A stretch of DNA of 48,422 nucleotides from Candidatus Micrarchaeia archaeon. GTDB taxonomy: Archaea; Micrarchaeota; Micrarchaeia; CAILAH01. Location: positions 1 to 48,422 of the forward strand of contig JAVYLZ010000003.1 of the NCBI GenBank assembly GCA_038740245.1, given 5' to 3'. A program made the position numbers and the translations under genes. The notes below the pieces were generated by a model that was not told the DNA's origin, made no database searches, and saw nothing but the letters and a program-made list of their open reading frames with translations. Positions within the stretch are counted from its first letter, which is position 1. Each line of letters opens with the position of its first letter. This document shows, piece after piece, positions 3,624-48,422 of this stretch.

Positions 3624-3627
3624 ACGG

Positions 3628-4118: not shown

Positions 4119-4136
4119 TATGTAATTTAATAAAGC

Positions 4137-4420: not shown

Positions 4421-4437
4421 CTAAGGGTAATATCCAA

Positions 4438-5190: not shown

Positions 5191-5192
5191 GA

Positions 5193-5495: not shown

Positions 5496-5680
5496 TTATG
5501 GCAAATGTTGACATCAGGAGGAAAAAGAAGGTAATCCTTGCAAAAAAGTGCAAGCAGAACCGGCGTGTGCCTGTATTTGTCAGTGTGAGGACAAAGCGCG
5601 ATGTTGGCGACAACCCAAAGCGGAGGTACTGGCGGACCAGGAAGCTTAAGCTCAGCAAGGAGAAAGTAATGAAGATGTGA
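5492..5680 (+). CDS. rpl39e: 50S ribosomal protein L39e
   Basis: The motif [35 protein letters not shown] matches L39e. GGAGGA lies upstream. Confidence 0.85.
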
Positions 5681-5681
5681 G

Positions 5682-6092: not shown

Positions 6093-6095
6093 AAA

Positions 6096-6770: not shown

Positions 6771-6779
6771 GGTGGTTGT

Positions 6780-6953
6780 ATGAAGTATAAGGTAAGCGGC
6801 AATGTGAAGCTTAAGGGCGGGGTGCGCAAGTTCAGCATTGAGATGGATGCGGAAAGCGAGAAGCATTTGCGCGACAAGGTGCTCGCATATTTCGGTAGCA
6901 AGTACAAGGTGAAGAGAAGCGCAGTTGAAATCTCCGAGATGAAGGGTGCCTAA
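6780..6953 (+). CDS. rplX: 50S ribosomal protein LX (L18Ae/L20A family), 57 aa; absent from the ORF track
   Basis: My own translation is MKYKVSGNVKLKGGVRKFSIEMDAESEKHLRDKVLAYFGSKYKVKRSAVEISEMKGA*. It occupies the conserved slot between aIF6 and prefoldin alpha. Confidence 0.7.
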   Translation: MKYKVSGNVKLKGGVRKFSIEMDAESEKHLRDKVLAYFGSKYKVKRSAVEISEMKGA

Positions 6954-6954
6954 G

Positions 6955-7359
6955 ATGGAGATAAACCGTGAGGAAATCCAGAAGATTGCTGTTGAGGCTG
7001 AAAATCTTCAGCGCATGCACAAAATGCTGCGTGACCAAATAGTTGCGCTCAACATGTCTGCACTTGAGGCAAGTGTAACTATAAACTCACTTGAGAAGAT
7101 AAAGGGCGGCGAGCACTCGCTGGTCTCGCTTGGCTCAGGGGTTTTCGCCAGCGCATCAATGAGCAAGTCAAAGTACGTGCTGCTTGATTTGGGGGGCGGC
7201 ATATGCGGCGAAATGTCCTCTGAAAAGGCCATAGAGCTTCTTAAAAAGCGGATAGAAGACTCACGTGAAATCACCAAACGGCTTGAGGAAGACCTTAAGC
7301 GCGTCCAGAACTCGCTTATTGAGCTTGAAGGCAGGGCGCGCAGGTATATCCAGCAATAG
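6955..7359 (+). CDS. pfdA: Prefoldin alpha subunit
   Basis: The architecture is coiled coil, beta hairpins, coiled coil (..LEASVTINSLEKIKGGEHSLVSLGSGVFA...YVLLDLGGGI..EMSSEKAIELLKKRIE..). It lies in the conserved position before ftsY. Confidence 0.8.
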   Translation: MEINREEIQKIAVEAENLQRMHKMLRDQIVALNMSALEASVTINSLEKIKGGEHSLVSLGSGVFASASMSKSKYVLLDLGGGICGEMSSEKAIELLKKRIEDSREITKRLEEDLKRVQNSLIELEGRARRYIQQ

Positions 7360-7367
7360 TGGTGCCG

Positions 7368-8783
7368 ATGTGGGGCCTCCTTAAATCAAAGGTATCGGAA
7401 TTTATCTCAAAAATAACAGGGGAGGCCAAGAAGGAAGAGGGTAGCCAAACCCCTCCTGAAGAGCCAGCTGCAAAGCAGGCCGAAAAAACCGAATTGCAGA
7501 AAGTTGAAACGGCGCCCACGCCCATTGAGGGCCACGCACTGCAAGCCGGCACTGAGGGAAAAATTCAGGAAAAAACGCAAGCGCCGATTGCAAAGGATGA
7601 GAGAAAACCTCCTGAAACAGCACCTGCCCCCAGCCAGCAACAGGCCCCAACAAAAGAGGAGAAAAGGCCAGCTGCAAGCGCTTGCGCCCCCGTCCAGCGG
7701 GAGGTGGTGGAGCAAAAGCCCGCGCAAAAGGAAAAGGAACGGGCGGCTGCTGACGAGGAGGTTAAGGAAAAAGTATTGCCAAAGCCCGTTCCAGAGCAGC
7801 CCCGGCAACAACCTGCTGCTGAAGTTGTGCAGCCACCTCAACCCACTGTTGCGCCTGGCACTGGCACTCAAAAGAAAGAGGAGCAAGTCCGTGTTAAAAT
7901 AGGAATAACCGACCACCTGAAAAAGATGGTGCTGCGAAAAGTCCGGCTCAGCAGGGAACGTGTTGAGGGGATGGCGCTTGACCTTGAGTTTGCGCTCATA
8001 CAGTCGGACGTGCATCCCGATGTGGCAAAGGAGGTTTGCGAGCGCATTGTGCAGCGCATATCCGACCGCGAGTTCACAAGCAGCGAGCTGGAGAACGAGG
8101 TAAAAAATGTGCTGCGCGAGGTCCTGCGCGAGGAAGCATTTGGCGCAAACAAGCCGTTTGACATTGTTGAGCTTGCCAAATCGCACATTAAAAAGCCGTT
8201 CAAGATACTTTTTGTCGGGCCTAACGGCGCCGGAAAAACCACCACAATCGCAAAAGTGGCACACAAGCTTATGGAGGGCGGGCTTACTGTCGTGATATCC
8301 GCTTCTGACACGTTTAGGGCGGCTGCAATTGAGCAGAGCGAGGAGCACGGCAGGCGGCTGGGCGTGCGCGTAATCAGGCATAATTACGGTGCGGACTCAG
8401 CGGCAGTCGCCTTTGATGCGATAAGGCACGCCGAAGCAAACAACATTGATGTTGTGCTTATAGACAGCGCGGGGAGGCAGGACACCAATTCCAACCTGAT
8501 TCGCGAGCTTGAAAAGCTGAACCGCATCGCCGCACCCGACCTTCGCATCTTCGTGGGCGAATCGCTTGCCGGCAATTCACTCTACCAGCAGGTAAAAGTG
8601 TTCAACGATGCAATAAAGCTTGACGGCATAATCCTGACGAAGGCGGACTGCGACTCAAAAGGCGGCACTGCAATCTCAATACTCCGCGAGACCGGCGTCC
8701 CAATTATATATCTCGGGATGGGGCAAAAGTATGACGACCTTGTAAAATTTGATCCTGAGATAATAATTTCAAATATACTTTAG
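7368..8783 (+). CDS. ftsY: Signal recognition particle receptor FtsY with a long low-complexity N-terminal domain
   Basis: The NG domain shows FVGPNGAGKTTTIAKVA, DTFRAAAIEQ, LIDSAGRQ, TKADCDSKGG and PIIYLGMGQKYDDL. The first ~185 aa are rich in P/E/K/A/Q. Confidence 0.9.
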   Translation: MWGLLKSKVSEFISKITGEAKKEEGSQTPPEEPAAKQAEKTELQKVETAPTPIEGHALQAGTEGKIQEKTQAPIAKDERKPPETAPAPSQQQAPTKEEKRPAASACAPVQREVVEQKPAQKEKERAAADEEVKEKVLPKPVPEQPRQQPAAEVVQPPQPTVAPGTGTQKKEEQVRVKIGITDHLKKMVLRKVRLSRERVEGMALDLEFALIQSDVHPDVAKEVCERIVQRISDREFTSSELENEVKNVLREVLREEAFGANKPFDIVELAKSHIKKPFKILFVGPNGAGKTTTIAKVAHKLMEGGLTVVISASDTFRAAAIEQSEEHGRRLGVRVIRHNYGADSAAVAFDAIRHAEANNIDVVLIDSAGRQDTNSNLIRELEKLNRIAAPDLRIFVGESLAGNSLYQQVKVFNDAIKLDGIILTKADCDSKGGTAISILRETGVPIIYLGMGQKYDDLVKFDPEIIISNIL

Positions 8784-24470: not shown

Positions 24471-25988
24471 CTACAGGAATGCTTCCACATCCTCTTTTTT
24501 GCGTGCCTGCTCCAGCTCATACTTCTTGGCAAGTGATTCCAGATCCACGGTATCAATGCTTATGTCCGCATTGCGCTTGCGCACGCGCACGAATATTGGC
24601 TGCACCACCGCCTCGCCGACAATAAGCGCTTCGCCAACCTTGAGCGTGGTTATGCTGTTGAGCATGTAGTTGTCTATGCCCTCACTGCTCTCACCGATGT
24701 GCTTTATGTCGTAGGGGTTTGTTACGCGCATTATAATGTGCGTGTTGCACTGCGACAGCGCGGTGGTGCTCAGGCGGACCGGCCTCTGCGAGATAAGGCA
24801 CAGCGATGCGCCAAACTTGCGCCCCTCACGGGCGATGCGCTCAAGCTCGTGCTTGGAAAGCATATCCTCGCGCTTAACGCTTTCAGCAGCAAAATTGTGG
24901 GCCTCCTCCACAACAAGCACAAATGGCGGTACCTTGCCCTTCTTAACCGCATTGAACAGCCTGCGCGCATAATACGCAACAAGCATCTGCTTCTTTTTCT
25001 CGCCGTCAATATCGCGCATGTTTATAACACTGATATGGCCCGGCTTGACAAGCGATGCTATTGACGGGTCGTCCACCTTCCCAAAAACGCGCATCTTCTG
25101 AAGCGCATCAAGGTGGTCAAGCAGTGCATCACGCGGCTTTGCGGCGCCCTTATCCTCTATTGAAGTGAGGTCCAGCATAATGTCCTTGGGCGTGAAAAAC
25201 CTGTGCTGCGCCTTTGCCTGCTTCTTCAGCTCATAAAAGGTTGATGCAAGCAGCCGCTTTTGGGTGGTGCTAAGTGAATGGTAAAACGGGAACATGTCCG
25301 GCGTTGCGTTTTTTGTGCCTATGCGTATCTTTGAGGCATCATACACTGTAACCTTGCCGGCAAGCGGGCCGGACTTCAGCATCGCATACTCGCCATGCAC
25401 ATCAATCACAACTACCCCTATACGGCCGTGCTCAGGGCTGCGCGCAGCAAGCTCCTCAAGCAGCACGCCCATAAGGTATGACTTGCCCGCACCCGACATT
25501 GCAAGTATTGCAACGTGCTTCTGGAACAGCTTTGAGAGGCCAAGCTTGACGTCAACATCATGGTTGAGCAGCTTGCCTATGTTGAGGCCGTTCTCCCTGA
25601 ACCCCAGATATTTGGCGAGCATCTGCTCATCCACCTGGTGGACATCGCTGCCGGGCGGCGGGGGGAACGAGCACCTGTGCAGCACTTTCCCGTCGTAAAC
25701 GCCCAGTATGCGCGTTTCGGCAATCGTATAGCTCCATTCATCTATGGGAAAATGGGAGGAAAGCGCGCCTGAGCGCTCGTACCCGGCAACGCTCTCAGCA
25801 CGCTCAAAATACCTGTTTGAGCGGAATATGTCGCCTATTGAGGCGATAAGCCTGCCGCCTTCGTGCCCAACCTCAACAAACTGGCCCTTCCTGACCCTGC
25901 CCAGTGCATCATCGTTTATCACGAATGCGAACTTACCTGTATTTGGGCTGTCCATCATTGAAATTATGGTGCCAAGCTTGGTAGCCAT
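24471..25988 (-). CDS. HerA-like (DUF87) ATPase of the FtsK/HerA superfamily
   Basis: It has an N-terminal HAS-barrel-like region, Walker A (HVAILAMSGAGKSY) and Walker B (FVLVVEEAHNF), and continues ..LCLISQRP... No NurA gene is adjacent. Confidence 0.8.
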   Translation of the reverse strand: MATKLGTIISMMDSPNTGKFAFVINDDALGRVRKGQFVEVGHEGGRLIASIGDIFRSNRYFERAESVAGYERSGALSSHFPIDEWSYTIAETRILGVYDGKVLHRCSFPPPPGSDVHQVDEQMLAKYLGFRENGLNIGKLLNHDVDVKLGLSKLFQKHVAILAMSGAGKSYLMGVLLEELAARSPEHGRIGVVVIDVHGEYAMLKSGPLAGKVTVYDASKIRIGTKNATPDMFPFYHSLSTTQKRLLASTFYELKKQAKAQHRFFTPKDIMLDLTSIEDKGAAKPRDALLDHLDALQKMRVFGKVDDPSIASLVKPGHISVINMRDIDGEKKKQMLVAYYARRLFNAVKKGKVPPFVLVVEEAHNFAAESVKREDMLSKHELERIAREGRKFGASLCLISQRPVRLSTTALSQCNTHIIMRVTNPYDIKHIGESSEGIDNYMLNSITTLKVGEALIVGEAVVQPIFVRVRKRNADISIDTVDLESLAKKYELEQARKKEDVEAFL

Positions 25989-37129: not shown

Positions 37130-40100
37130 CTACTTGCACTTATATTTCTTGTAAAGCGCCATCATTTTTGAGCCGTCGCACTGCGTGCCCTCCTGCCCCT
37201 CAGGCACCTTCCTGTCGCTGAATGTCAGGAGCGATTGCGGCACACCTCCGTAATAATAGCGGCCGCACTGGTCAAACCACGCGCGCGTGTAGGGATCCTT
37301 GCTGTAAGTATTCGGTGGCAACACTGCGCCCGGATCAACGCTTCCTGCACCAATGCCGCCGCCTATCCCCCCCAAGCCTGGGAGGCTGCCGCTCCCGCCT
37401 AAACCGCCCAAACCGGGTATGTTGCCCGCACCTAATACTATGCTAGAGCCTAAATTATTGCCTCCAAACAGCGAGCTAAGGCCTGACATGCCCGCAAACT
37501 GGAACCCGCCTCCTCCGCTTGTGCCACTAATATCAACCAAATTCCCATATTTAAACAGGAGAGATGCGCCCTTGTCCGAAGAGCTCTGGAATGACCAGGC
37601 GCCAACTTTCTGCGAGCCATCAACCCCACCCTGCCCAAATGGAAGCTTGTAGAAAGAAGAGGTGGTGTAATAGAGGCCATAATCACTGCCGGCAGAATAT
37701 GTTGATACGGGCGTGCACGCACCGTCTATCAGGCAGTATTGACCAATACCAATCACCCCTGAACCGGCAAGCATTATGAAGTCCTCTTCATATAGCTGCT
37801 GCACCTGTTCCATAATCTCATCGTGCGTCCAGCACGATTGCCGCTCGTCCATATTCCGGTTCAGCCCAAACCCAAGTATTATTGACGGGATGTCATAGTA
37901 TTTCATAGCATATTCTGAAACGTTGCGTATCCCGTCCAAGTAGTTTGTAAGCTTGCACTGGCCCCTGTATCCAGGCCCGGGGTCATCTATTACAATAACA
38001 AACCCTATCAGGTCTATTGATTCATTTTCTTCAGATTCCACAGCAAGCTGTATCCGAGTGCGCCTAAACGTCTCATTTATCGTCTCTTTCATTGCATTTA
38101 TTTCACGGTTCGTGAGCTTTGTCCCATTAACATGTATGTAGAACGGCAATGTGGATATGCAGCGCTGCATGCGCACGGTGTTATTGCCGGGGCAGTAATA
38201 GCTGTATTCGCATTTGGCGTTTGCATTGCTGCACTGTATTGCCCCCCCATCCTTCTTGCACTGGTCCTTTGGTATTGTGCTGTCGCACATCTTTGTTGCG
38301 CCTTCCCAGTAACAGCAGCATCCTTCTTGGTTGTAATCCTTATAGCTTATGTTCTGCTCAATGTTCTCGCTCTTCGCACCATCAGTACCATCCTTAGGAA
38401 CTTCACACAGCGAATTATCACTATACCCTGTTGCCTGCCTGCAAGTTATCTCTATAGTAGCAATTTGGCTCGCCAGGCCTTCAAACACTAATGTCTTGCT
38501 CACACCGCTTCCGGATGGATATTTTATGTGCGAATTTGGCTTGGTTGTGCTGTCTGCACCCGTACCGCCGCTCCATATGGGGGGAACTTTAACTTCAATT
38601 TCGGTAGGTGCAGAAGATTCAAATTCATTGCCAGGATATGATTCGCCCGCACCGAGCTCAACAAGGCCGTCTACACTCACAAGCTCCGCGGTTATTATTG
38701 CAGGTGTTGCCGGCGCGCGCGGATTCAATTGCAGGTTCTCATATGCGGGATTGTCATAGCCGGGCTTAGGCTCGCTGATGGCCTTGGTTATGTTGGCAAG
38801 CATATTTACTGATTCTGTGCCGCCAACACTTTCCTCGGTGGGCACAAGCCACTGTGAAGTAAGCCCATCCTTAAAGCCGGCTTTGGCATTCTCCACAGGG
38901 ATGCACTTGCGCTCGCCTTTGCTTAGCGTAATCGTTTCAGGGGATGTTCCACCTGTAACCACCTCGCGTGAGTCGCGGCTGTAATCCATATTGGTTATGC
39001 ATACGCCCGTTGTTGCACCTTGCGTTATGCTAATGCTTGAAGGGTCAAACGTGTTCATGTTAAGCGAGACCTGCGTTACAAGGCGCTCAACAAGCACGTA
39101 AATCCTCCTGCCGCTGTGCGGGTTGTAAAGCATATACTTTGCCGCCCTCTCATTAGGATTCAGCGATAGTTTCAACAAGTGGGTGTCGCCACTTGAAATT
39201 GAAGCGCGTGAATAACCATAAGAAGACATGCGTGCAGGTGAATTGAGGTAAGTGTCAATGTCCCTCGGGCTTATTGAGTAATCGTTGTAGTTATTTATGC
39301 AATTAGCATAGTTTGTGGTGCCATCAGCGTTTTTCTCACCAAAGCACGCTGCATTCATCCTGTCAGAAACCAGTTTCTGGAGGTCGTTTGATTGGCCGCA
39401 GGGGTCAACCTTGCCTAAGTACCATACTGCAGTGTCAGGCCCGATATTTCTAAGGGTAAACGACGAACCGTCTGGCACTACTATCTCATCGCCGACCACA
39501 TTCACTGTCATATTGTAAAGGTAAATTTTGACAATATCTTTTGAGATATCCGCAGAATAATTTCTGTATCTCCGTCCACCATCCGGGAATGTTGGGATTG
39601 AATAGCTTACAGAGCCAAGCTTTGTGTCTTCCAGCTTCTTCACGAAAGGCGATATGTGCGAAAACACACTGGTAGCAACTTTCATCTCTATTGTGCCGGC
39701 AGGATCTATCGGAACCTCATTATAACTGCCCACCAGCCCCGCATAATATGCCGGCTCATAAACCGCAAACGTGCCCATCACTTCAGGTGCATACTGCTTC
39801 TGGCCCAGCGGCGGTATTATGTCCTGTATGCCGTTGTATGTATCCTTGCCGTAGCACATCACTTTTATGCCTTTTTTGCTCTTTACCGTAAAGGTCTGTG
39901 TGAGCACATAACCCTTCCCCTGCTCAAGAATCTTTGCGCCTAAATACTCCGATTCGGCAAATTTGTCGGTTGCACTCTCAATGTCATTTATGAGGTAGAG
40001 ACGGCCGCCAGTGAACGCAGTTACAGGTATGCTGCCATACCTCGGCACTGCATAATTGTTTGGGTGCACGTATGTTTCTGTGCATTCGCACTTACCATTA

Positions 40101-43100
40101 TTATTGCTAGATCCAAGCTTGCACATTGAGCACGTGCTCGTAATGGTGCCGCTTACTGGGTCAAACCCGGGCAGCACATACTCATAATATGCGGGCTTAC
40201 CTGCCGGCTGGTCTACAAAATCATATATCTTGTCCTTGTTGTAGTGGGGCTCGTTTGCGTATGGTGTTGCCACAATTTTTGCGAGATCATATTCTGACAA
40301 ATCGGTTCTCGGAACTTTAACCCATACGCCATAATCATCAGACTTGTGGCCGAAAGGCGCAGGGTTTGAGCGGCACCACCACACATCATATGAGTTGCTG
40401 CAGTCTTTATGGTTCATGCAGCCATTAAAGCACTCCGCCTCACCGCTGCAAGAATCTTTGCAAAATTCCTCAAGCGTGCCGCACAAAGTTCCAAACTGGC
40501 TGTAAAATACCGAGCTACCATCTATAATATCACAGTCCTCCCCGCATTCATTGAAATCAATCTCAAGCTCGCAATAATCGTTACCACTGCCTGTATTATC
40601 ACATAGTCTATTCCCTGCTGTATCATACCCACAGAAATAGTTATCATTATTATAATCACTCATTAAGCCACCGCTACCTGGCAGGGGCTCCCATACTCCC
40701 TTATCATTAATCCATCTCTCAATCTTTGGCCCGTTATTCTTTTCGGAATCCTCGCTATAATTAAGCTGGCCCGGAGTAAACGTGAGCCCGCCTTCTGTTA
40801 TCAGCTCACCGTTTGATACACGAATCCGCCTCCAGTCTGGATTGTCCGGGTACTGGAATGTTAAGTACTGGCCGCTCTTATATACGCTAATGTCCCCAAC
40901 AATCTGCGGCAGGATTGGATATGACGGCGCACCGTTTTCTGAGGATGAATGGATGTAATCAATTTCATTAGAGTAATCAAGAGGCATTACAAGTTGGCCA
41001 CCTGAAGTTCGTGCGACTATAATTGGCCAGGCGTATGAAAAGTCCTTGGTTTTCTTTATTGTGCCGGACATATTGAATGGCACATACATGCTCTTCTTTA
41101 CAGCAGCAGTTTGATAGTCCTCCTTAGTAGCATAGTTCCACCATATCTGTGGATACACCGACCTGCTCTTGTTAATTACTATTGAGCCACGCCACACATC
41201 ATAATACTCCAGGTTAAAGAGCTCATCGTTTATGCTCCACGTTGGGTTGGGGGATGGCGGCAGCCGCCTTAACAGGACACTATAGTCCCCAACATTATTT
41301 ACCCCAAAAAGAAGATAGGGCGCGCCATCTTTGGATTTAACTTGTTGATTGCTGAACAGCCGTACCGTATACGCTGATTTTGTGTAGTTCAGGTTGCTTA
41401 TAAAGCCTGGCGCAAGCTGCAATGAACTGCCGTACACTTTTGCGTAAGTACTTTCTAAAGGAGTTCCGGAAATGAAAGGTACAAGCGCAGTAACTTCATT
41501 TTGGCCCACAAATGGCCTATTCAAGTATGCGTTTATGTTAGTGTACCCCATATTGGGCAAAAGCTCAATGTCTGCAAGCTTTTTTGCCGTGCCTACATAT
41601 TTGTCATGGTTCTCCAAAGCATCCAGTATTGCAACAGGAACTGAATAAAGCTCCATATTGTAAGCCGTGTAATAATCATTCGCACCTGCGATATTAAACT
41701 CGTTTTCAGCGTCTTGGCGGATCATTGTGCAGTATTTGGATGGATCATCAGGCCTAAGCATAATCGCACGCGGCTCAAAAGCAAGGTTTTGCACGCTGAG
41801 CGCATAATTATTACGTGATTCGGGTGGGCTAACACTATACTCATCATAAGAGAAGTTGAGCTCCTGCACGGGCTTGACTGGTTTTAAGATTATTTTCTTG
41901 GTTGCCGAACCCTTGGTTAGAGTGAACACAACTTCCTTGTCTGGCATGTCAAACTCCCAGCGCACGCATTTCGGAAACAGGAAATCTCCAACCTTAACCA
42001 TTCTTGATTCGCTGCAAGGTATCTCAGGAGACGACGACACAACTGCATTCACATCATCAAGCGTTACGTTGACAAGTGAGCCGACCACCGCACTGTAATT
42101 CTCCTCCTCAGTCGGGTTCTTCAGCACAACTTCGGCATCGCCTATCCGTGAATACAGGAACACCGGCAAGCTTTGGTGGTAGGCGAGCATTTCGCGTGCC
42201 TTCATAAGCGTATCCTCATCAGGCACACCTGATATCACCTGCACTCCGAAATCAAGCGGGCTTTCACCAACACCCTGCCGATACTCAAGCGCGCTTTTAT
42301 CAGACGGCTTTATAATCAAGAGCCCTAACTGCATAAACTGCGTTTTCTCTGTAAGCTTGATGCCAGAACCGCCGCCAATAAGCGGCCTCCCTGAAACATC
42401 ATATCCCACCGGTACGTTGCCATAATACCCTGCAACAGCTGATGTGACATTGCCTTGCAATGATTTTGTTTTCCCGCTCTCAAAGACAACCTGTGTTCTT
42501 GAAAACATTGAGCTAAAATCAACATAAGTGCTGTTTTGGTCAAAAGTGTTTTTGTTTGGGTTATTTCTACCAAGCGTAAGACGGTTGCCATCCTCCTTCA
42601 AACAAAGAGTTTTATTTTCATAAGGCAAAATATAACTCTGAGAAACAAAGCCAGATATGTAAAGTGTAACTGTCTCATTGATGTTGTTTTTAACTATGAT
42701 GCACGGGGATAACGGCTGCATATAGTTCGTTGCAAACCCGCTGTCGTAAATGTTAAGCTCGTTGTAAACAGTGTAATCATAGTCATCAACGTTCGTGACC
42801 GTAATGCTGCCATGCGAAGATGCACCGGTTATCTCTTTTGGCGGCGGGATATCAATCTCCAAATAGGATGGAATCATCTTACCGTTTACAATATACCCTG
42901 CATTGGGCGGGCCAACCGCCACAAGCACGTTGACGCCGCTTTCATTGTGCCGCATTAAGTAAAGGCCTTCTTGATCCATGGTAAAACAGGACATATCATA
43001 TGCCTTTACGGATAAGACCCTTGCACCCGTTTTTAGAAGTTCTGCCGATGTGCTTGCGAGCACTGACGACTTTGTAACTTTTATTGGCCCGATTATTGTG

Positions 43101-46100
43101 GCATCACTGTCAACTGCGTTAATGCACACATATCCTCCCGTGCCTACCCTCCCAGAAACCGGCAATGCTGCTGTGGCATATACATCCACTCTGAATACAT
43201 CACTTGTATTAACATAAAGCGTGAACTTGCCACCGGTATCAGTATCAACAAAATTGTATGTGCCATCCTCCCTCGTGAAGTTGTAGGTGCAGAACCTTCC
43301 AAGCGGGGGCACCTTAAACTCGCCAGAAACGCCGGCCGTGGAATCATAGGTTAGCGTGCGGTTTATGTTCACTGGGTTCTCAATGCACACCAAATCATCA
43401 ATCTTTGAAAGTGCTGTTGGTGGCGTGTATGCATAATCCCCTATGCGGATTGTTGAGATAAGCGAGGCAGGGTATACCACAGCATACCCGTAATTGCCCG
43501 GTATCTGGTAATCAGAGATGCGGTAAATGCCTGCACCGGGCAGGTCAAAACAGCACTCCAGCCCGTAATATGATGATTTCGCCTCAATAGGTACGTATGC
43601 ACCTGTGTAATTGAGCTTCTTCTCAAGCAGTATTGTCTTCTGCGCATTCGGGACTTCGTTGCGCACGCACAGCTTTGAGCCCTCGGCAACCTGTATCGCG
43701 CCGGGCAGGAACCACGGGCTTGCTGCAGAGCCAACCATGCGCAACACAGTGCCGTCCGCATATGCAACATATGTGAATGGATGGTCATCAACATAATCTA
43801 TGTATTCAGCAGGGGTATTGACAAGCGCTATGCGGTCGCCGCCCTTCTCCTCTATTTTCAGTACCGGATACAACTGCGCACCTTCTATTTTAATTGGGCC
43901 GCTGGGCCACACCGGCCCAGGTACGTAAAGCGTGCCCTGCGGTGTAATGCCGATTTGCACGCCGCCTAAAGAAGACTGGCCTCCTGGTGTAAGTGAGATC
44001 CCACCGATTGTTATCCCGCCTAAAAGAATTGGGGGCAACAGCGGGATGCTCTGCTCTGGGATCTGCGGGGTTACTTCAGGGGGGATATAGCCCTCCATAT
44101 ACCCTGATGCGAACACCGGATCCATCTCAATATAGCCATCGTAAAGGAATAGCGGCTTGCCATTGTATAATTTCACGATATTCCTCCCGCCAACGTTGGC
44201 TGTTGCTTTTTCAAGCACTATTTGTGCGCGTGCGTATTCGTTTTCATCCAGCCACAAAACTGAATATGTCTTGTTAATTTTCGTGTTGGGCCCGACAGGC
44301 AGGCAAACACTTTCACCTGGAGGCACCGTCACAAGCTCGCGCTTAACCGATGGCATAAGCGGCATCTCTATATCTGAAGAGGCTATCTTTATGGTGTGGT
44401 TTGAAACGCCCATATTGTTGAAGCACAGGCGTGAGCCCTCACGCACAGTTATGGCGTTTGGGTCAAACGGCAGGCCGCCGGCAGTTATCTTTACAGCTGC
44501 AGGGTCTGATGGCTGGCACAGGCTGCGTGCTATCAAGTAGTCATCAAAAGTCGGCCCCTGCCCAATCATAAACATTGGTATTTTAGTATCCCTGCTTTCA
44601 AGCAGTGCTTTGAACACACCGCCCGTGAAATTGTGCACCTCATACAGATAGCCGCCCTGTGAAGACGTGTCTGCTATGCGCTCACACTGTGTATAGTAAT
44701 ACTTGGTCGGGTTGCCGGGCCGTGTGCACTCATACGTTGCATATATCGGCTTGGCGCACGCGCACTGGCACACAAAATACCTGATATTTGCATCGTTCAA
44801 ACTTCCTTTATCGCAAACCTTAACCGTTTTTGAGCTCACGCATTTGCACTTATCTTCGTTCTCCTCACAATATTTGCACTTGGCTGGCTCTGAACTGCAT
44901 GAGAACAATTGGCTTGGGTTTGTCACATTGCGGTATACCAAACATTCCTCCTTGGTCATAAGCTTCCCGCTAATTGCACGGTCAATCTCAACACAGGGGG
45001 TGAGTCCCGTGCAGCAGGGTGCTTTGGTTTCAGTTGAAGTTGAGGTGTCATCACTTTCGCAGGCATTATCAGGGTTCAACTCCGCTTGCGTGTAGCCACG
45101 CTCACTAACTTCACTCGCTTCACTGCCCATCGTTGTCTTCTTCTTTGCAGCTTCCTTTTGTGTGCACTCGTTGCAGGCATCAACGCTTGACTTGACGCCT
45201 TCCTCCGCAAGGCTCTCAAGCGACTGCTGCTCCTGCTGGCACACATCTTCACACCCCTTAATAATGCCGCTTTCTTTTTGTGCATTCTTCTCATAGCTAC
45301 TCGCTGGCTCTGTAAGCTTCTTGTAATCCAAAGAGAGGTCCCGTATCACAACTGAGGGATTAGTGTCGGCATTAACAACTGGATTGTACTTGAAATTCAT
45401 TGCATTGTAGGGGTATTCAATGGGCATTGCGGCCTTGCACTGTTCTGGGAGGCCTGCAATAAGTATCCCCCCGTCCGCACACGTCCTGCACCCGTTTTCA
45501 ACATCGCAGTTATCAAGCGAGTATGTGCCGCTGCGTTGCATGCTTGAGATTGCATTGCATATGAACTGACCAGAGCTCGTCTCAGTATTGCCTGAATCCA
45601 GCTTGACCTTGCCCATTGAGCCGATGCCATCGTAATACTGGCCGGTTATTGCGTTCTCGGCTGGATAGAATGTGAGGTACGCATACAAATTACCTTCAAA
45701 TGGGCAAGCCGCATCGCCAGTGTAGTATAGCGCGGAATCCCCGCTGCAGTCATATTCAAGGCATAGGGTATCAGGGTATTCAAGCTCTCTGCACTCATCA
45801 CCATAGAGGGAATAGTACTTGTTGCCCTGCGGGTCATCATTTGCGCCTTTGAATGCAGGCGAGCATTCCCAGCGCACGTTGCTCTGATACTGCTGCTGTG
45901 CAATCGCCATACACGTGGCTGCCTTGCACTCCACGTCCGGCGCCTCCACACACTTATGAGTAAGCTGGTCGCACATCATGTTGGGGCTGCAGCCCTCAAT
46001 GTTTTGGCATTGCGCATCCGTAAGGCAGCCGATATCACACTTGGCTTTTTCTTTCTCAACGGTAATGCTTTTCGGGAGCTCGCTTCGCCCATAGTATTTC

Positions 46101-46159
46101 AGGCAGCCAGCGAGCACAAGCAGGCCCACAATGAAACATACGAACAATGCCCTGCGCAT
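37130..46159 (-). CDS. Giant (3009 aa) putative surface lipoprotein or adhesin
   Basis: The frame is uninterrupted for 9 kb. The N-terminus MRRALFVCFIVGLLVLAGC is a signal peptide with a lipobox. A Cys-rich head is followed by many beta-rich modules with paired Cys. A Gly-rich tract lies near the C-terminus. Confidence 0.8.
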   Translation of the reverse strand: MRRALFVCFIVGLLVLAGCLKYYGRSELPKSITVEKEKAKCDIGCLTDAQCQNIEGCSPNMMCDQLTHKCVEAPDVECKAATCMAIAQQQYQSNVRWECSPAFKGANDDPQGNKYYSLYGDECRELEYPDTLCLEYDCSGDSALYYTGDAACPFEGNLYAYLTFYPAENAITGQYYDGIGSMGKVKLDSGNTETSSGQFICNAISSMQRSGTYSLDNCDVENGCRTCADGGILIAGLPEQCKAAMPIEYPYNAMNFKYNPVVNADTNPSVVIRDLSLDYKKLTEPASSYEKNAQKESGIIKGCEDVCQQEQQSLESLAEEGVKSSVDACNECTQKEAAKKKTTMGSEASEVSERGYTQAELNPDNACESDDTSTSTETKAPCCTGLTPCVEIDRAISGKLMTKEECLVYRNVTNPSQLFSCSSEPAKCKYCEENEDKCKCVSSKTVKVCDKGSLNDANIRYFVCQCACAKPIYATYECTRPGNPTKYYYTQCERIADTSSQGGYLYEVHNFTGGVFKALLESRDTKIPMFMIGQGPTFDDYLIARSLCQPSDPAAVKITAGGLPFDPNAITVREGSRLCFNNMGVSNHTIKIASSDIEMPLMPSVKRELVTVPPGESVCLPVGPNTKINKTYSVLWLDENEYARAQIVLEKATANVGGRNIVKLYNGKPLFLYDGYIEMDPVFASGYMEGYIPPEVTPQIPEQSIPLLPPILLGGITIGGISLTPGGQSSLGGVQIGITPQGTLYVPGPVWPSGPIKIEGAQLYPVLKIEEKGGDRIALVNTPAEYIDYVDDHPFTYVAYADGTVLRMVGSAASPWFLPGAIQVAEGSKLCVRNEVPNAQKTILLEKKLNYTGAYVPIEAKSSYYGLECCFDLPGAGIYRISDYQIPGNYGYAVVYPASLISTIRIGDYAYTPPTALSKIDDLVCIENPVNINRTLTYDSTAGVSGEFKVPPLGRFCTYNFTREDGTYNFVDTDTGGKFTLYVNTSDVFRVDVYATAALPVSGRVGTGGYVCINAVDSDATIIGPIKVTKSSVLASTSAELLKTGARVLSVKAYDMSCFTMDQEGLYLMRHNESGVNVLVAVGPPNAGYIVNGKMIPSYLEIDIPPPKEITGASSHGSITVTNVDDYDYTVYNELNIYDSGFATNYMQPLSPCIIVKNNINETVTLYISGFVSQSYILPYENKTLCLKEDGNRLTLGRNNPNKNTFDQNSTYVDFSSMFSRTQVVFESGKTKSLQGNVTSAVAGYYGNVPVGYDVSGRPLIGGGSGIKLTEKTQFMQLGLLIIKPSDKSALEYRQGVGESPLDFGVQVISGVPDEDTLMKAREMLAYHQSLPVFLYSRIGDAEVVLKNPTEEENYSAVVGSLVNVTLDDVNAVVSSSPEIPCSESRMVKVGDFLFPKCVRWEFDMPDKEVVFTLTKGSATKKIILKPVKPVQELNFSYDEYSVSPPESRNNYALSVQNLAFEPRAIMLRPDDPSKYCTMIRQDAENEFNIAGANDYYTAYNMELYSVPVAILDALENHDKYVGTAKKLADIELLPNMGYTNINAYLNRPFVGQNEVTALVPFISGTPLESTYAKVYGSSLQLAPGFISNLNYTKSAYTVRLFSNQQVKSKDGAPYLLFGVNNVGDYSVLLRRLPPSPNPTWSINDELFNLEYYDVWRGSIVINKSRSVYPQIWWNYATKEDYQTAAVKKSMYVPFNMSGTIKKTKDFSYAWPIIVARTSGGQLVMPLDYSNEIDYIHSSSENGAPSYPILPQIVGDISVYKSGQYLTFQYPDNPDWRRIRVSNGELITEGGLTFTPGQLNYSEDSEKNNGPKIERWINDKGVWEPLPGSGGLMSDYNNDNYFCGYDTAGNRLCDNTGSGNDYCELEIDFNECGEDCDIIDGSSVFYSQFGTLCGTLEEFCKDSCSGEAECFNGCMNHKDCSNSYDVWWCRSNPAPFGHKSDDYGVWVKVPRTDLSEYDLAKIVATPYANEPHYNKDKIYDFVDQPAGKPAYYEYVLPGFDPVSGTITSTCSMCKLGSSNNNGKCECTETYVHPNNYAVPRYGSIPVTAFTGGRLYLINDIESATDKFAESEYLGAKILEQGKGYVLTQTFTVKSKKGIKVMCYGKDTYNGIQDIIPPLGQKQYAPEVMGTFAVYEPAYYAGLVGSYNEVPIDPAGTIEMKVATSVFSHISPFVKKLEDTKLGSVSYSIPTFPDGGRRYRNYSADISKDIVKIYLYNMTVNVVGDEIVVPDGSSFTLRNIGPDTAVWYLGKVDPCGQSNDLQKLVSDRMNAACFGEKNADGTTNYANCINNYNDYSISPRDIDTYLNSPARMSSYGYSRASISSGDTHLLKLSLNPNERAAKYMLYNPHSGRRIYVLVERLVTQVSLNMNTFDPSSISITQGATTGVCITNMDYSRDSREVVTGGTSPETITLSKGERKCIPVENAKAGFKDGLTSQWLVPTEESVGGTESVNMLANITKAISEPKPGYDNPAYENLQLNPRAPATPAIITAELVSVDGLVELGAGESYPGNEFESSAPTEIEVKVPPIWSGGTGADSTTKPNSHIKYPSGSGVSKTLVFEGLASQIATIEITCRQATGYSDNSLCEVPKDGTDGAKSENIEQNISYKDYNQEGCCCYWEGATKMCDSTIPKDQCKKDGGAIQCSNANAKCEYSYYCPGNNTVRMQRCISTLPFYIHVNGTKLTNREINAMKETINETFRRTRIQLAVESEENESIDLIGFVIVIDDPGPGYRGQCKLTNYLDGIRNVSEYAMKYYDIPSIILGFGLNRNMDERQSCWTHDEIMEQVQQLYEEDFIMLAGSGVIGIGQYCLIDGACTPVSTYSAGSDYGLYYTTSSFYKLPFGQGGVDGSQKVGAWSFQSSSDKGASLLFKYGNLVDISGTSGGGGFQFAGMSGLSSLFGGNNLGSSIVLGAGNIPGLGGLGGSGSLPGLGGIGGGIGAGSVDPGAVLPPNTYSKDPYTRAWFDQCGRYYYGGVPQSLLTFSDRKVPEGQEGTQCDGSKMMALYKKYKCK
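37343..37516 (-). repeat. Gly-rich low-complexity tract within the giant protein
   Basis: The tract reads GGGGFQFAGMSGLSSLFGGNNLGSSIVLGAGNIPGLGGLGGSGSLPGLGGIGGGIGAG and lies about 70 aa before the C-terminus. Confidence 0.8.
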
Positions 46160-47020: not shown

Positions 47021-48133
47021 CTATATTACGCGCACCATCCCGCGGCCTATGTCCGCAATGTTGCCCCCAAGTATCTGCGTTAGCGAGCGCGCAAACAGGA
47101 ACGTGCCAACCATCGCAACAAACGGGTAGAAATATGCATACAGCCGTATACGGCCGGCAGTATCCTGTGAGAACCCGCCAACATCGCTGGAGATGAGCTT
47201 GCCGTAGCCGCTTGAGCCTGCTGGCTTATTGCCCTGCGACTCCTCAATCAAGGATTCAATTGCCGTGGGGTCCGCAGGGCACATCTTCTTGCCCTCTTTA
47301 ACTGTTTCCTCCTCTTCCTCAACAATTTCAACGGCAACCGAGCACTTGTCCGGAAGCGGGGGAGCATTCACGAACAGCACTGTAAGCAGGAACGGGTATA
47401 CAAAATAAAGCGAGATCGCAATGCCCATAATCGCTGCACCGCCCCCGCGCGTGTACGGGAATGCGCGGAGCAGAATTCCAAGTGGTAGATATACGGTAAC
47501 CATTGACGCCTCAATCCACTGCAGGAAATTAATCTGGAAATAGGCGGCAAGCGAAAGCCACAGTATTTCTTCTGCATCCATTATGGCAACCATAAGCTTT
47601 CCCCAAGCGTCGGTTGCAAGATCAAGTATTACGGGGATTGGCAACGGTACTAATGCACCCATCACATTGAGACTTACGCCCATACGCGGTATCATCTCAT
47701 AAGCCTGCAGCTTAAGCAGCCGGTTATATTCGGACTTGAGGCATTTCAGCGAGCTCAGCAGGTAAACGTATGAGACATCAAATATGTTTACTTGGTAACC
47801 GGTCTTGCCAAGTATCTGCTCTGCTGCTGCACCGCCTATCATATCCCTGAAATCCTTGTTGCCTGCGATTATGAAAGATTCTGTTGTTGCAAAGGCCATA
47901 AGAAATGTTATGAGAAGCACCGTGGCCGCCAGCTGGAAGAACTCGCGTCTTACAGCCATCTCAAGAGTGCGCGAGCTGAATATCTTTGATGCCATATAGA
48001 GTATTATGAGCATGAAGGCGATTATCATTACCACTGACATTGCTATACCATACCACTCAAGTGGCATGTTCTGGGCCAATACCTGTGCAGAAGTTTCCCA
48101 TGGCGAAAGTGCAACATCTATGCTCGTCATCAT
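47021..48133 (-). CDS. Polytopic integral membrane protein of 370 aa with about 7 or more TM segments
   Basis: It has multiple long hydrophobic segments and an acidic loop (EIVEEEEETVKEGKK). Its start overlaps the upstream stop (ATGA). No family was recognised from sequence alone. Confidence 0.6.
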   Translation of the reverse strand: MMTSIDVALSPWETSAQVLAQNMPLEWYGIAMSVVMIIAFMLIILYMASKIFSSRTLEMAVRREFFQLAATVLLITFLMAFATTESFIIAGNKDFRDMIGGAAAEQILGKTGYQVNIFDVSYVYLLSSLKCLKSEYNRLLKLQAYEMIPRMGVSLNVMGALVPLPIPVILDLATDAWGKLMVAIMDAEEILWLSLAAYFQINFLQWIEASMVTVYLPLGILLRAFPYTRGGGAAIMGIAISLYFVYPFLLTVLFVNAPPLPDKCSVAVEIVEEEEETVKEGKKMCPADPTAIESLIEESQGNKPAGSSGYGKLISSDVGGFSQDTAGRIRLYAYFYPFVAMVGTFLFARSLTQILGGNIADIGRGMVRVI

Positions 48134-48422
48134 ATCGCCCTCATTATGCCGGAGATGTCAATCTCAGAGCCAAGCGTGCCGGCCAGACTGCGCACCAGCG
48201 CCGCGGTTATAAGCACCTGCAGTGCGGGTATGAAGAACACAAGCAGCATCACCGAGCCGTAGGCATTGTAAACATCAATGAAATACTCATTAATGCTTGC
48301 AGTATCCATGCCTGAGGACAGCCCTAGTGCTGTGAGCCCTAATAAACCACTAACACCTGATACTATAAGACCTGTAACACTTGCCATTCCGGCTAGGGCG
48401 CCTGCAAACATCACTGCAAGCA
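48130..48422 (-). CDS. Small two-TM hairpin membrane protein; possibly truncated by the window edge
   Basis: The first hydrophobic helix is GALAGMASVTGLIVSGVSGLLGLTALGL, followed by a polar loop and the second helix SVMLLVFFIPALQVLITAALV. The frame stays open upstream to the window end. Confidence 0.5.
   Translation of the reverse strand, partial: LAVMFAGALAGMASVTGLIVSGVSGLLGLTALGLSSGMDTASINEYFIDVYNAYGSVMLLVFFIPALQVLITAALVRSLAGTLGSEIDISGIMRAI

What the first reader, a model, noticed from the sequence alone, without database searches (positions are those of the whole stretch)
37130..46159. 3009-aa lipobox giant protein built from repeated beta-rich modules with conserved Cys pairs
This single 9-kb ORF begins with a signal peptide plus lipobox (LVLAGC). 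A Cys-rich head follows (..CDIGCLTDAQCQNIEGCSPNMMCDQLTHKC..).

The body contains at least six divergent modules that share a cupredoxin/Ig-like strand pattern around a Cys. Examples are ITVREGSRLCFNNMG, IQVAEGSKLCVRNEV, SKIDDLVCIENPV, GTGGYVCINAVD and ISITQGATTGVCITNMD. Each has a partner Cys about 30-45 aa downstream.

A 58-aa Gly-rich tract (37343-37516) precedes a short Cys-containing C-terminal tail. Proteins of this size are rare in archaea, and in small-genome episymbionts they are prime candidates for host-interaction surfaces. Lipobox-type anchoring in an archaeon is itself worth testing.
Basis: partly seen in the sequence, partly recalled or inferred. Interest (0 to 1): 0.6.

Follow-up and report, generated by a model that had tools for sequence, protein, structure and literature searches.

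The report
Giant split-domain surface lipoprotein of Micrarchaeota
This 3009-residue gene of a tiny symbiotic archaeon (Micrarchaeota) most likely encodes a lipid-anchored cell-surface protein whose membrane-side domain is interrupted by about 2,000 residues, including five disulfide-stapled cupredoxin-like modules; no function is known for it or for any gene in its operon.

Summary
The ORF 37130-46159 (-) is real. It is intact and colinear with full-length orthologues in all five searched genomes of the same Micrarchaeia family, so it is not an assembly chimera.

The lipobox N-terminus (LAG-C19) is conserved across the whole superfamily. They lack the copper site and share only a Cys-Cys pair and a Pro. 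They make up about 16% of the protein, so it is not "built from" them.

The new result concerns two segments conserved across the class:
- N-block, about aa 460-548.
- C-block, aa 2668-2835, plus tail, aa 2945-3009.

These are two colinear pieces of one roughly 400-aa alpha/beta domain. That domain is contiguous in 650-1000-aa lipobox paralogues, one of them in this genome. In other Micrarchaeia families the paralogues are fused to SLT and M23 hydrolase domains. The giants form one clade.

Giant and compact forms sit beside six paralogous polytopic membrane proteins. The domain has no PDB, Pfam or NCBIfam relative.

Both AlphaFold jobs failed (pLDDT about 30) and read mapping was closed. The fold and the function as a host-contact projection are therefore inferred.

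Archaeal lipobox anchoring is already known. Earlier notes of this scan had flagged this operon.

The parts
46103..46159 (-). Signal peptide with lipobox, aa 1-19: MRR, then the h-region, then L16-A17-G18-C19.
   Evidence: It is the only hydrophobic segment in the protein. The Cys and the following L-K-Y-x-x-R-x-E-L-P motif are conserved in orthologues and, in variant form, in all giants and compact paralogues. Cys is enriched at this position genome-wide.
45950..46039 (-).
   Evidence: It is present only in this protein and in P0002. None of its Cys is conserved in the family alignment.
44825..45934 (-). Family-specific Cys-rich N-terminal region (aa 76-445; motif WECSPAFKGANDDP).
   Evidence: The region aa 76-548 holds 33 Cys, 18 of them invariant in the six homologues. 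The HMM of aa 76-300 matches only family f1 strongly. There is no Pfam or PDB hit.
44516..44782 (-). N-block of the split alpha/beta base domain (aa 460-548; FMIGQGPTFDDYLIARSLC).
   Evidence: Four results support this:
- The compact-domain HMM, positions about 55-143, matches here in all giants, with E from 1e-10 to 1e-4.
- hhalign gives 95-172 against 514-592, E 1.6e-4.
- Searching this genome with alignment A6 gives E 6.3e-5.
- The block is conserved across the class.
44198..44512 (-). Cupredoxin-like module A, the 'exit' module (aa 550-654; Cys579/Cys619).
   Evidence: Pfam Cupredoxin_1 gives E 8e-4, which is below its cut-off. The module HMM gives E 4e-24. Its closest relative inside the protein is module F, with probability 95% and E 1.6e-8.
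43874..44092 (-). Variable Pro/Gly-rich linker (aa 690-762).
   Evidence: The segment has 14 Gly and 13 Pro in 73 aa. Conservation is low and gaps are many in the family alignment.
42899..43762 (-). Cupredoxin-like modules B, C and D in tandem (aa 800-900, 901-988, 989-1087). Their Cys pairs are 831/869, 925/957 and 1012/1058.
   Evidence: The module HMM gives E 6e-20 to 8e-20 for B and C and 2e-20 for D. The modules are mutually related by hhalign. Their Cys are invariant.
39851..42898 (-). Non-repetitive middle of the insertion (aa 1088-2103). It includes a conserved stretch at aa 1296-1480 and a variable Cys-rich stretch at aa 1840-1930.
   Evidence: There is no internal repeat and no Pfam, PDB or NCBIfam hit. 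The region is conserved within family f1 only, apart from weak matches of aa 1300-1370 in G116 and G209.
39095..39850 (-). Possible degenerate modules (aa 2104-2355).
   Evidence: The only evidence is a weak self HMM-HMM match, 2104-2440 against 727-1080, E 2.9e-4 and probability 41%. The module HMM does not detect anything here.
38822..39094 (-). Cupredoxin-like module F, the 're-entry' module (aa 2356-2446; Cys2387/Cys2419).
   Evidence: The module HMM gives E 5.7e-17. In four of the giants outside this family (G178, G209, G039, G116) the last detected module likewise ends within about 45 residues of the start of the C-block.
38678..38704 (-). Conserved PATPAIITAEL motif (part shown: aa 2486-2494). 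It probably corresponds to the GPVIxTxE strand of the compact domain.
   Evidence: The motif is conserved in all giants. It aligns with the compact-domain strand only weakly, at E 0.03-0.3.
38159..38443 (-). Family-specific Cys-rich segment with a CCC triplet (aa 2573-2667).
   Evidence: It holds 11 Cys, 3 of them invariant. It is absent from giants outside this family.
37655..38158 (-). C-block of the split alpha/beta base domain (aa 2668-2835; IDLIGFVIVIDD, IPSIILGFG, GSGVIGIGQYC).
   Evidence: Four results support this:
- The compact-domain HMM, positions 238-369, matches own aa 2692-2833 at E 2.5e-14.
- hhalign gives probability 96.7% and E 4e-10.
- Searching this genome with alignment A6 gives E 1.8e-12.
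- The low-confidence AF2 model shows alternating strand and helix here.
37328..37609 (-). Gly/Ser-rich insert (aa 2851-2944).
   Evidence: The tract is 43% Gly. The insert is present only in family f1. In other giants and in compact forms the tail follows the C-block directly.
37133..37327 (-). Conserved three-Cys C-terminal tail that closes the base domain (aa 2945-3009; KDPYxRAWFDQCGRYYY...CDxSxxMALYKKYKC).
   Evidence: It matches in all giants at E 1e-10 to 1e-15. It corresponds to compact-domain HMM positions 369-411.

Best explanation
The gene encodes a Sec-exported protein that is probably anchored to the outer face of the cytoplasmic membrane through a lipid on Cys19.

**Architecture**
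- Its membrane-side part is a Cys-stabilised alpha/beta 'base' domain found only in Micrarchaeia.
- In most members of that family the base domain is a contiguous block of about 400 aa.
- Here, and in a single clade of giants, the chain leaves the base after its first strand-helix unit (aa ~548). It runs through about 1,900-2,100 extra residues and returns to complete the base (aa ~2486-2835, plus the tail at 2945-3009).
- The excursion starts and ends with cupredoxin-like beta-sandwich modules (A and F) that are each other's closest relatives. Three more such modules (B, C, D) and about 1,000 residues of unknown fold lie between them.
- Each module is stapled by one conserved Cys pair and lacks a copper site.

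**Inferred shape and role**
- Because both ends of the excursion are held by one domain, the insertion should form a long hairpin-like projection from the cell surface.
- It is co-transcribed with six paralogous polytopic membrane proteins, a bitopic protein and two knottin-like Cys-array proteins.
- I infer that it is the outward-reaching part of a conserved envelope assembly, most likely for contact or adhesion with the host or partner cell.

**Shown:** the ORF, the orthologues, the lipobox conservation, the module homology, the split colinear match to the compact domain, the operon context, and the giants forming a single clade.

**Inferred:** lipidation, disulfides, the folds, the hairpin geometry, and any role in host contact.
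For: **ORF and orthologues**
- The ORF and its translational coupling are shown.
- Full-length colinear orthologues of 2785-2948 aa occur in 5 of 5 searched genomes of the same family and in two metagenomes.

**Lipobox**
- The lipobox is conserved across giants and compact forms.
- Cys is enriched 8.6-fold at the lipobox position in this genome.
- Archaeal and DPANN lipoproteins are established (PMC12462473).
- No TatC was found, and SecY lies in the window.

**Modules**
- The modules are related to each other.
- The module HMM finds 5 copies here and 2-7 in distant giants.
- The module profile matches cupredoxin 4hcf at E 0.0017 and several plastocyanins at E 0.4-1.5.
- Foldseek on the low-confidence model lists tandem beta-sandwich chains.

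**Split domain**
- The compact-domain HMM matches every complete giant as colinear N- and C-blocks.
- hhalign gives probability 96.7% for the C-block and 50% for the N-block.
- In this genome the same profile matches the 666-aa C7 paralogue contiguously and matches the giant in two pieces about 2,150 residues apart.

**Evolution and context**
- The 16 giants form one clade against 31 compact forms, with support 0.98.
- Operon context is shared by giants and compact forms.
- 41 of 95 Cys are invariant, which is consistent with extracellular disulfides.
Against: **No usable structure**
- Both AlphaFold2 jobs used 3-sequence alignments and gave mean pLDDT of 31 and 30.
- The alpha/beta fold, the beta-sandwich fold and the reunion of the N- and C-blocks are therefore not shown.

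**Gaps in the split-domain match**
- Compact-domain HMM positions about 133-189 (the IPxYIYYT strand and its helix) have no significant counterpart in the giants. Two candidate sites score only E 0.07-0.08. The base domain may therefore be incomplete or remodelled.
- The N-block match in this protein alone is modest, at E 1.6e-4.

**Weak cupredoxin evidence**
- The cupredoxin match is below Pfam's cut-off.

**Missing experimental and genomic evidence**
- There are no expression, localisation or lipidation data.
- The lipid-attachment gene (AliA) was not sought in this 81%-complete genome.
- Compact paralogues carry hydrolase domains, so an enzymatic role for the base domain cannot be excluded.
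Confidence: 0.55

Rival explanations
1. It is primarily an enzyme. The alpha/beta base domain would be a glycoside-hydrolase-like (possibly TIM-barrel-like) catalytic domain acting on envelope glycans of the host or of the cell itself. The inserted beta-sandwich modules would serve as substrate-binding or reach modules.
For: - In other Micrarchaeia families, compact paralogues fuse the same domain to SLT lytic transglycosylase (at Pfam threshold), to Peptidase_M23 (E 1e-25) and to a GDSL-like domain.
- The domain shows about seven or eight alternating strand and helix motifs, and one invariant Glu (TxE).
- The low-confidence AF2 secondary structure is beta-alpha-beta-alpha-beta-alpha across aa 2670-2791.
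Against: - Profiles of 13-15 sequences give no hit to any glycosidase or other enzyme family in PDB or Pfam.
- Only one acidic residue is invariant.
- The strand before the putative catalytic region is not detectable in the giants.
- Fusion to hydrolases fits a docking or carrier domain equally well.
Confidence: 0.17
2. It is the main S-layer or another bulk structural envelope protein of the cell.
For: - It is a large, secreted, beta-rich protein with 29 N-glycosylation sequons.
- Foldseek on the weak model also lists an S-layer chain, HPI 8cka.
- A Micrarchaeota S-layer exists (10.1101/2021.04.28.441871).
Against: - The identified Micrarchaeum S-layer protein is 101 kDa with almost no sulfur-containing residues. 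This protein is about 325 kDa (my estimate from its 3009 residues) with 3.2% Cys.
- The number of sequons is close to my own estimate of what its composition alone would give (about 24).
- The giant form was found in only 27 of 401 sampled Micrarchaeia genomes, which is too patchy for a core wall component.
Confidence: 0.07
3. It is a redox protein that carries copper in its cupredoxin modules for extracellular electron transfer.
For: - There are weak cupredoxin matches.
- Module A keeps a His (H588) at the position of the first copper-ligand His when aligned to plastocyanin.
Against: - The modules share only two Cys and one Pro as invariant residues.
- The C-terminal Cys-X-His-X-Met ligand loop is absent from all five modules. 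The single His/Met combination in module D is not conserved.
Confidence: 0.03
4. It is an artefact: an assembly chimera, or a read-through of several genes.
For: - The genome is a 41-contig MAG.
- An N-run interrupts a neighbouring gene just past the window end.
Against: - The same architecture, end to end and without stops, occurs in independent assemblies: P0003 on two contigs of 66 and 137 kb, and in G030, G238 and G335. G170 matches as far as its contig end.
- Base composition is uniform across the ORF.
- The flanking operon is conserved.
Confidence: 0.01

Closest known systems
Compact Micrarchaeia lipobox proteins with the same alpha/beta domain. Examples are the 666-aa paralogue on contig C7 of this genome, and the 745-aa protein of genome G025 that also carries an SLT domain. 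All are annotated 'hypothetical protein'.
   Same: - They share the lipobox N-terminus, the Cys framework and the sequence blocks FMxGQG..YC, VDxIGxG, KPTIWLY, SGVIGxxxY and WFxxCxxY.
- The one compact gene whose neighbours were read through (genome G025) lies beside the same six paralogous membrane proteins.
   Different: - In the compact forms the domain is contiguous.
- It is followed by SLT, M23 or GDSL-like domains, or by degenerate C-terminal regions.
- In the giant the domain is split by about 2,000 residues and has no appended hydrolase.
Cupredoxin fold proteins: Pfam PF13473 Cupredoxin_1, PDB 4hcf, and plastocyanins.
   Same: The N-terminal strand pattern (x-F-x-P-x-x-v-x-v-x-x-G-x-x-v-x-f-x-N) and a length of about 95 aa are shared. 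The profile matches are E 0.0017 for 4hcf and 0.4-1.5 for plastocyanins.
   Different: - The match is below Pfam's cut-off.
- There is no Cys/His/Met copper loop.
- A conserved Cys pair, presumably a disulfide, takes its place.
- The modules are used as repeats inside a giant surface protein.
Giant surface proteins made of tandem beta-sandwich domains: the Salmonella adhesin SiiE and the Aureispira grappling-hook protein GhpA.
   Same: It is a very long secreted protein containing strings of beta-sandwich modules. Both named proteins are among the Foldseek matches to the weak model. This is what it most plausibly works like.
   Different: - There is no sequence relation, and no Big, cadherin or RTX domains.
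- It is anchored by an N-terminal lipid rather than through a secretion-system plug or outer-membrane anchor.
- Its modules are an insertion inside another domain rather than a linear stalk.
Archaeal lipobox lipoproteins processed with AliA and AliB (Haloferax volcanii; PMC12462473).
   Same: It has the [L/V/I][A/S/T/V/I][G/A/S]C motif after an h-region. DPANN genomes are reported to be rich in such proteins.
   Different: - It is predicted only.
- Export is by Sec rather than Tat.
- Its size is far beyond that of typical substrate-binding lipoproteins.
- AliA was not sought in this genome.
SPEARE giant proteins of Nanohaloarchaeota. This comparison is from my own knowledge of Hamm et al. 2019 (PNAS) and was not checked here.
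   Same: They are giant proteins of a DPANN episymbiont that have been proposed to mediate host interaction.
   Different: As I recall, SPEARE proteins carry protease, adhesion and restriction-endonuclease domains. None of these is detectable here, and there is no sequence relation.

Membership tests
Lipobox lipoprotein (archaeal or bacterial type) | A positively charged n-region and a hydrophobic h-region, followed by [LVI][ASTVI][GAS]-Cys. | tested here: met
   The sequence is MRR + ALFVCFIVGLLV + L-A-G-C19. It is the only hydrophobic segment in the protein.
Lipobox lipoprotein (archaeal or bacterial type) | The lipobox Cys is conserved in homologues. | tested here: met
   The Cys is present in all homologues with a complete N-terminus, both giants and compact forms. 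Cys is enriched 8.6-fold at this position genome-wide.
Lipobox lipoprotein (archaeal or bacterial type) | The lipidation machinery (AliA, arCOG02177) is present and the Cys is actually lipid-modified. | not tested
   No profile or accession for AliA was available to me, and modification needs mass spectrometry. The literature says AliA occurs in DPANN with gaps.
Cupredoxin (PF13473 / plastocyanin-like) | A sequence match above the curated threshold. | tested here: not met
   The score is 19.8 bits against a cut-off of 27. The profile against PDB gives E 0.0017 at best.
Cupredoxin (PF13473 / plastocyanin-like) | Type-1 copper ligands: His, then Cys-Xn-His-Xn-Met. | tested here: not met
   Only two Cys and one Pro are conserved across the modules. 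No C-terminal ligand loop is present.
Cupredoxin (PF13473 / plastocyanin-like) | A Greek-key beta-sandwich fold. | tested here: inconclusive
   The AF2 model has mean pLDDT 31. Foldseek on it lists beta-sandwich chains including NirK and a multicopper oxidase, but with TM-scores below 0.2.
Micrarchaeia lipobox alpha/beta-domain family (unnamed) | A match to the family profile over the domain. | tested here: met
   The N-block and C-block plus tail match colinearly. On the C-block tree the giants form a clade beside the compact forms.
Micrarchaeia lipobox alpha/beta-domain family (unnamed) | A complete and contiguous domain, with all strand-helix units present. | tested here: not met
   The domain is split by about 2,000 residues. 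HMM positions about 133-189 have no significant counterpart.
Micrarchaeia lipobox alpha/beta-domain family (unnamed) | A gene neighbourhood with paralogous polytopic membrane proteins. | tested here: met
   This is seen in this operon, in those of P0002 and P0003, in the giants of G178 and G211, and in the compact form of G025.
Archaeal S-layer protein | Few Cys and Met residues, 40-200 kDa, and a core, abundant component. | tested here: not met
   It has 95 Cys (3.2%) and 3009 aa. It was found in only 27 of 401 genomes searched. The comparison is with SLP_Mh at 101 kDa.
Bacterial giant adhesins (Big / cadherin / RTX type) | Recognisable Big, cadherin or RTX repeats. | tested here: not met
   Neither Pfam nor NCBIfam gives such a hit.

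The most novel reading that the evidence does not exclude
The giant lipoprotein would be one part of an undescribed Micrarchaeia-specific envelope apparatus. The other parts would be the six paralogous polytopic membrane proteins, the bitopic protein and the knottin-array proteins.

In this reading, the split alpha/beta base domain docks on a hetero-oligomeric membrane ring. The roughly 2,000-residue hairpin insertion reaches through the S-layer to hold or probe the host cell. In this picture the compact paralogues would mount wall-cutting SLT/M23 heads on the same base domain.

That would make this the first candidate gene set for the symbiont side of the Micrarchaeota-host contact.
Probability: 0.2. 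Interest if true: 0.85.

Novelty: new variant of a known kind. Interest (0 to 1): 0.6.

Why it matters
Micrarchaeota and other DPANN archaea live attached to host cells. No symbiont-encoded contact structure was named in the Micrarchaeota papers I read. In the one system imaged by cryo-tomography, the nanotubes were assigned to the host (PMC11329633).

This work defines a lineage-specific protein family with a clear and testable architecture. It has a lipid anchor and a base domain that occurs either whole or split by a giant beta-sandwich-rich insertion. It also has a conserved operon of membrane partners, none of which has any annotation.

It offers three concrete targets for the cultivated Micrarchaeota co-cultures:
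- antibodies against the protein;
- proteomics;
- cryo-ET.

It is also an extreme natural example of domain insertion: about 2,000 residues inside a domain of about 400 residues.

The lipobox itself is not new.

Tried and rejected
- **AlphaFold2, aa 440-1639 and aa 1810-3009.** The tool admits only a restricted set of sequences, so the alignments had 3 sequences. Mean pLDDT was 31 and 30, which is unusable.
- **Foldseek on those models.**
  - The C-terminal model gave nothing below E 1e-3.
  - The N-terminal model gave generic tandem beta-sandwich chains with TM-scores below 0.2. I treat that as a hint only.
- **Family searches.**
  - Pfam, NCBIfam and PDB sequence and profile searches of the giant, its family profile (A1, A7), the C-terminal unit (A5) and the compact domain (A6) gave nothing except the weak cupredoxin match.
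  - Searches of the other operon genes found no family either; their only matches are weak, far below cut-off and look like chance.
- **BLASTP self-comparison.** It found no repeats. Only profile comparison shows them.
- **The search for homologous proteins.** It returned only 2 giant homologues and 8 compact ones.
- **The search for related loci.** It returned few loci because its patterns were narrow. The genome search was far more productive.
- **Representative search with the compact paralogue.** It found only 73 proteins among 1.84 billion, all of 193-1094 aa. The family is small.
- **Placing the missing strand-helix unit of the base domain in the giant.** The result is ambiguous, with three sites at E 0.03-0.08.
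- **Origin of the insertion from a neighbouring gene.** I tested whether it came from the roughly 1,800-aa gene next to compact forms. There is no similarity, so I rejected the idea.
- **Tat export.** I rejected it. The RR pair is not conserved and no TatC was found.
- **Copper binding and S-layer identity.** I rejected both; see the rival explanations.
It has no sequence support. The genes turn out to be six paralogues.

Full report
**1. The observation**

The window is most of a 55-kb contig of a 0.69-Mb, 41-contig genome. Its nearest named relatives are Candidatus Micrarchaeota MAGs.

An uninterrupted ORF runs from 46159 down to 37130 on the minus strand and encodes 3009 aa. Its ATG directly follows the TAA of the upstream gene. 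The next gene starts 42 nt after its stop.

The only hydrophobic segment is the N-terminus, MRRALFVCFIVGLLVLAG-C19. The protein has 95 Cys (3.2%). Its 29 N-x-S/T sequons are close to my own estimate of about 24 expected from composition.

These are the six-Cys head (aa 41-70), the five quoted strand motifs with partner Cys 32-46 residues downstream, the Gly tract (aa 2882-2939, 43% Gly) and a Cys-containing tail.

**2. A real gene, not a chimera**

Among 5.8 billion clustered proteins only two homologues appeared. One is a partial Micrarchaeota protein at 56% identity. The other is a 2948-aa protein at 33% identity covering 99% of the query, and it is present on two independent contigs of 66 and 137 kb.

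A six-frame search of 401 Micrarchaeota genomes found colinear orthologues without internal stops in 5 of 5 genomes of the same family. Four have open frames of 2785-2891 aa. The fifth, a genome of the same genus, holds its copy in two contig-end fragments. That search also found more distant giants of 1724-3199 aa in other families; a 3447-aa frame with the C-block turned up in a later search.

Composition is even across the ORF. The colinear orthologues make a chimera very unlikely.

**3. The N-terminus**

The motif of an h-region followed by x-[AGS]-G-C is conserved in all giants with a complete N-terminus and in about 28 compact paralogues. A conserved short motif follows it: LKYxxRxELP in this family and LxMTPRxxxP in others.

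In this genome, 19 of 105 signal-like N-termini carry a lipobox-like tripeptide followed by Cys. Cys is the residue most enriched at that place, at 8.6-fold over background.

The RR pair is not conserved and no TatC was found. SecY, SRP54 and FtsY lie in the window. Sec export of an unfolded chain is therefore the likely route.

Lipobox lipoproteins in archaea are already published. So are their predicted abundance in DPANN and the lipidation proteins AliA and AliB (PMC12462473). This part of the finding is therefore not new. I did not test whether AliA is present here.

**4. The repeated modules**

Plain self-BLAST finds nothing. I cut sub-alignments from the seven-sequence family alignment and compared them by HMM-HMM.

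- The five segments A (aa 548-655), B (800-900), C (901-990), D (991-1086) and F (2355-2445) give the ten best scores of all 120 pairs. Probabilities run from 14% to 95% and E from 1.6e-8 to 1.9e-3.
- Nine control segments score no better than probability 9%, and then only against one of the five modules.
- A joint alignment of 33 module copies has just two invariant Cys and a nearly invariant Pro.
- Its profile finds cupredoxin 4hcf (E 0.0017) and four different plastocyanins (E 0.4-1.5) in the PDB.
- Pfam Cupredoxin_1 matches module A below its cut-off, at 19.8 against 27 bits.
- None of the modules has the Cys-His-Met ligand loop.

I therefore read them as copper-free cupredoxin-like sandwiches, each held by one disulfide.

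An HMM built from this family alone finds five modules here and 2-7 in every distant giant, down to E 6e-13. A weak long self-match (2104-2440 against 727-1080, E 3e-4) may hide one or two degenerate copies.

The five clear modules cover about 16% of the protein. Residues 1088-2103 are non-repetitive and match nothing known.

**5. The unexpected part: a split domain**

Distant giants share only three stretches with this protein: about aa 450-590, about 2700-2830, and 2940-3009. The same motifs lie next to each other in small lipobox proteins of other Micrarchaeia.

- That compact form was found in 156 of 401 genomes.
- It occurs in this genome too, as a 666-aa protein on contig C7.
- A 416-position HMM of the compact domain, built from 30 sequences, matches all 17 giants examined. 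Each giant with both ends complete shows two colinear blocks.
- For this protein, positions 94-143 match aa 516-564 (E 1.6e-4), positions 238-369 match aa 2692-2833 (E 2.5e-14), and positions 369-402 match aa 2950-2984.
- For giants of other families the N-block reaches E 1e-10. The contiguous C-block reaches E 1e-20 to 1e-43.
- HMM-HMM comparison agrees, at 96.7% and 50% probability.
- In this genome the same profile hits the C7 paralogue contiguously, and hits the giant in two pieces about 2,150 residues apart.

The Gly/Ser-rich tract is a family-specific insert between the C-block and the tail.

One unit of the compact domain, HMM positions about 133-189, has no significant counterpart in the giants. 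The base domain may therefore be remodelled.

On a tree of the C-block the 16 giants form one clade against 31 compact forms, with support 0.98. Genomes with a giant also keep a compact paralogue. This points to one old duplication followed by one origin of the split form.

The compact domain has no relative in PDB, Pfam or NCBIfam. Its public homologues are all 'hypothetical protein' of Micrarchaeota. Only 73 representatives among 1.84 billion proteins match it.

**6. Context**

The operon continues beyond the window.

- It begins with six paralogous polytopic membrane proteins. One is split only by an N-run in the assembly.
- A bitopic 285-aa protein follows, then the giant, then two Cys-array proteins that an earlier follow-up report of this scan called knottin-like.
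- The same order is seen around P0002 and P0003 and around the distant giants of G178 and G211.
- A compact gene in G025 also lies beside six such membrane paralogues.
- The membrane family is nearly universal in the class, at 337 of 401 genomes.
- No gene of the operon has a significant Pfam or NCBIfam match.
- In other families, compact paralogues end in SLT lytic-transglycosylase, Peptidase_M23 or GDSL-like domains.

**7. How it most likely works**

Shown:
- a signal-like N-terminus with a conserved lipobox;
- a base domain split by a very large insertion;
- an insertion that begins and ends with modules A and F, which are each other's closest relatives;
- in G178, G209, G039 and G116, a module directly after the N-block and another ending within about 45 residues of the C-block.

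Inferred: the two blocks reunite at the membrane, so the insertion forms a hairpin-like projection. The conserved Cys would stabilise it through disulfides (41 of 95 are invariant). It would work together with the membrane proteins of its operon, most plausibly in contact with the host.

Rivals:
- An enzymatic base domain is favoured by the hydrolase fusions, but there is no family match.
- An S-layer role is disfavoured by Cys content, size and patchy distribution.
- A copper protein is disfavoured because the ligands are missing.
- An artefact is disfavoured because orthologues are colinear.

**8. Limits**

Both structure predictions failed. Fold assignments therefore rest on weak profile matches and on a Foldseek run with a poor model. 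That run lists tandem beta-sandwich proteins such as GhpA, PirB, alpha-2-macroglobulin, NirK and SiiE, with TM-scores below 0.2.

There is no evidence on expression, localisation or modification. The papers I read on Micrarchaeota surfaces and host contact name no protein of this size or kind.

**9. Verdict**

The protein is a new variant of a known kind, the giant beta-sandwich-bearing surface protein of an episymbiont. It is built in an unusual way on a lineage-specific domain of unknown fold, inside an entirely unannotated and widely conserved operon.

Noticed in passing
L004 (G000:C3:46000-55362) 1022-8048, which is contig C3 47021-54047 and lies partly beyond the window end: Six paralogous polytopic membrane proteins (434, 314, 497, 352, 277+94 and 370 aa) head the operon. 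They share an LLRAFxxTRxxGG motif and a similar C-terminal motif. None has a significant Pfam match; the two tested against NCBIfam (370 and 497 aa) have none either. The family was found in 337 of 401 Micrarchaeia genomes, often in several clusters per genome.
   Followed up: partly
window 48130-48420 and L004 2412-3245: The '94-aa' and '277-aa' membrane ORFs are one gene of about 367 aa in relatives. Here it is broken only by a run of N at about C3 48419-48431. This is an assembly gap or masked stretch, not a real split.
   Followed up: partly
G000 contig C7, 27955-29952, minus strand (L086/L087): This is a 666-aa lipobox protein (MFSGC) carrying the contiguous form of the giant's base domain. 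Its C-terminal half has no Pfam hit, but it sits where relatives carry an SLT domain.
   Followed up: partly
Loci L056-L085, for example L075 (G178) and L079 (G386): Compact paralogues in other Micrarchaeia families combine the alpha/beta domain with SLT lytic transglycosylase, Peptidase_M23 (E 1e-25) or GDSL-like domains. These are murein-hydrolase-type lipoproteins in archaea whose known hosts are archaea.
   Followed up: partly
L090 7551-13124 (G025) and L091 11368-16752 (G136): A protein of about 1,800 aa directly precedes the compact gene in two genomes. The two are related to each other (E 2e-22) but not to the giant's insertion.
   Followed up: partly
G391:C55:4063-4713: A 3447-aa open frame carries the C-block. 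It is a still larger member of the giant clade and was not examined.
   Followed up: no
window 24471-25988 (-): A HerA/DUF87-type ATPase gene lies 6.5 kb downstream of the operon end. No ATPase is encoded inside the operon itself.
   Followed up: no
whole genome G000: No TatC (PF00902) was found in this 81%-complete genome. Lipobox-like signals are common, in 19 of 105 signal-like N-termini.
   Followed up: partly
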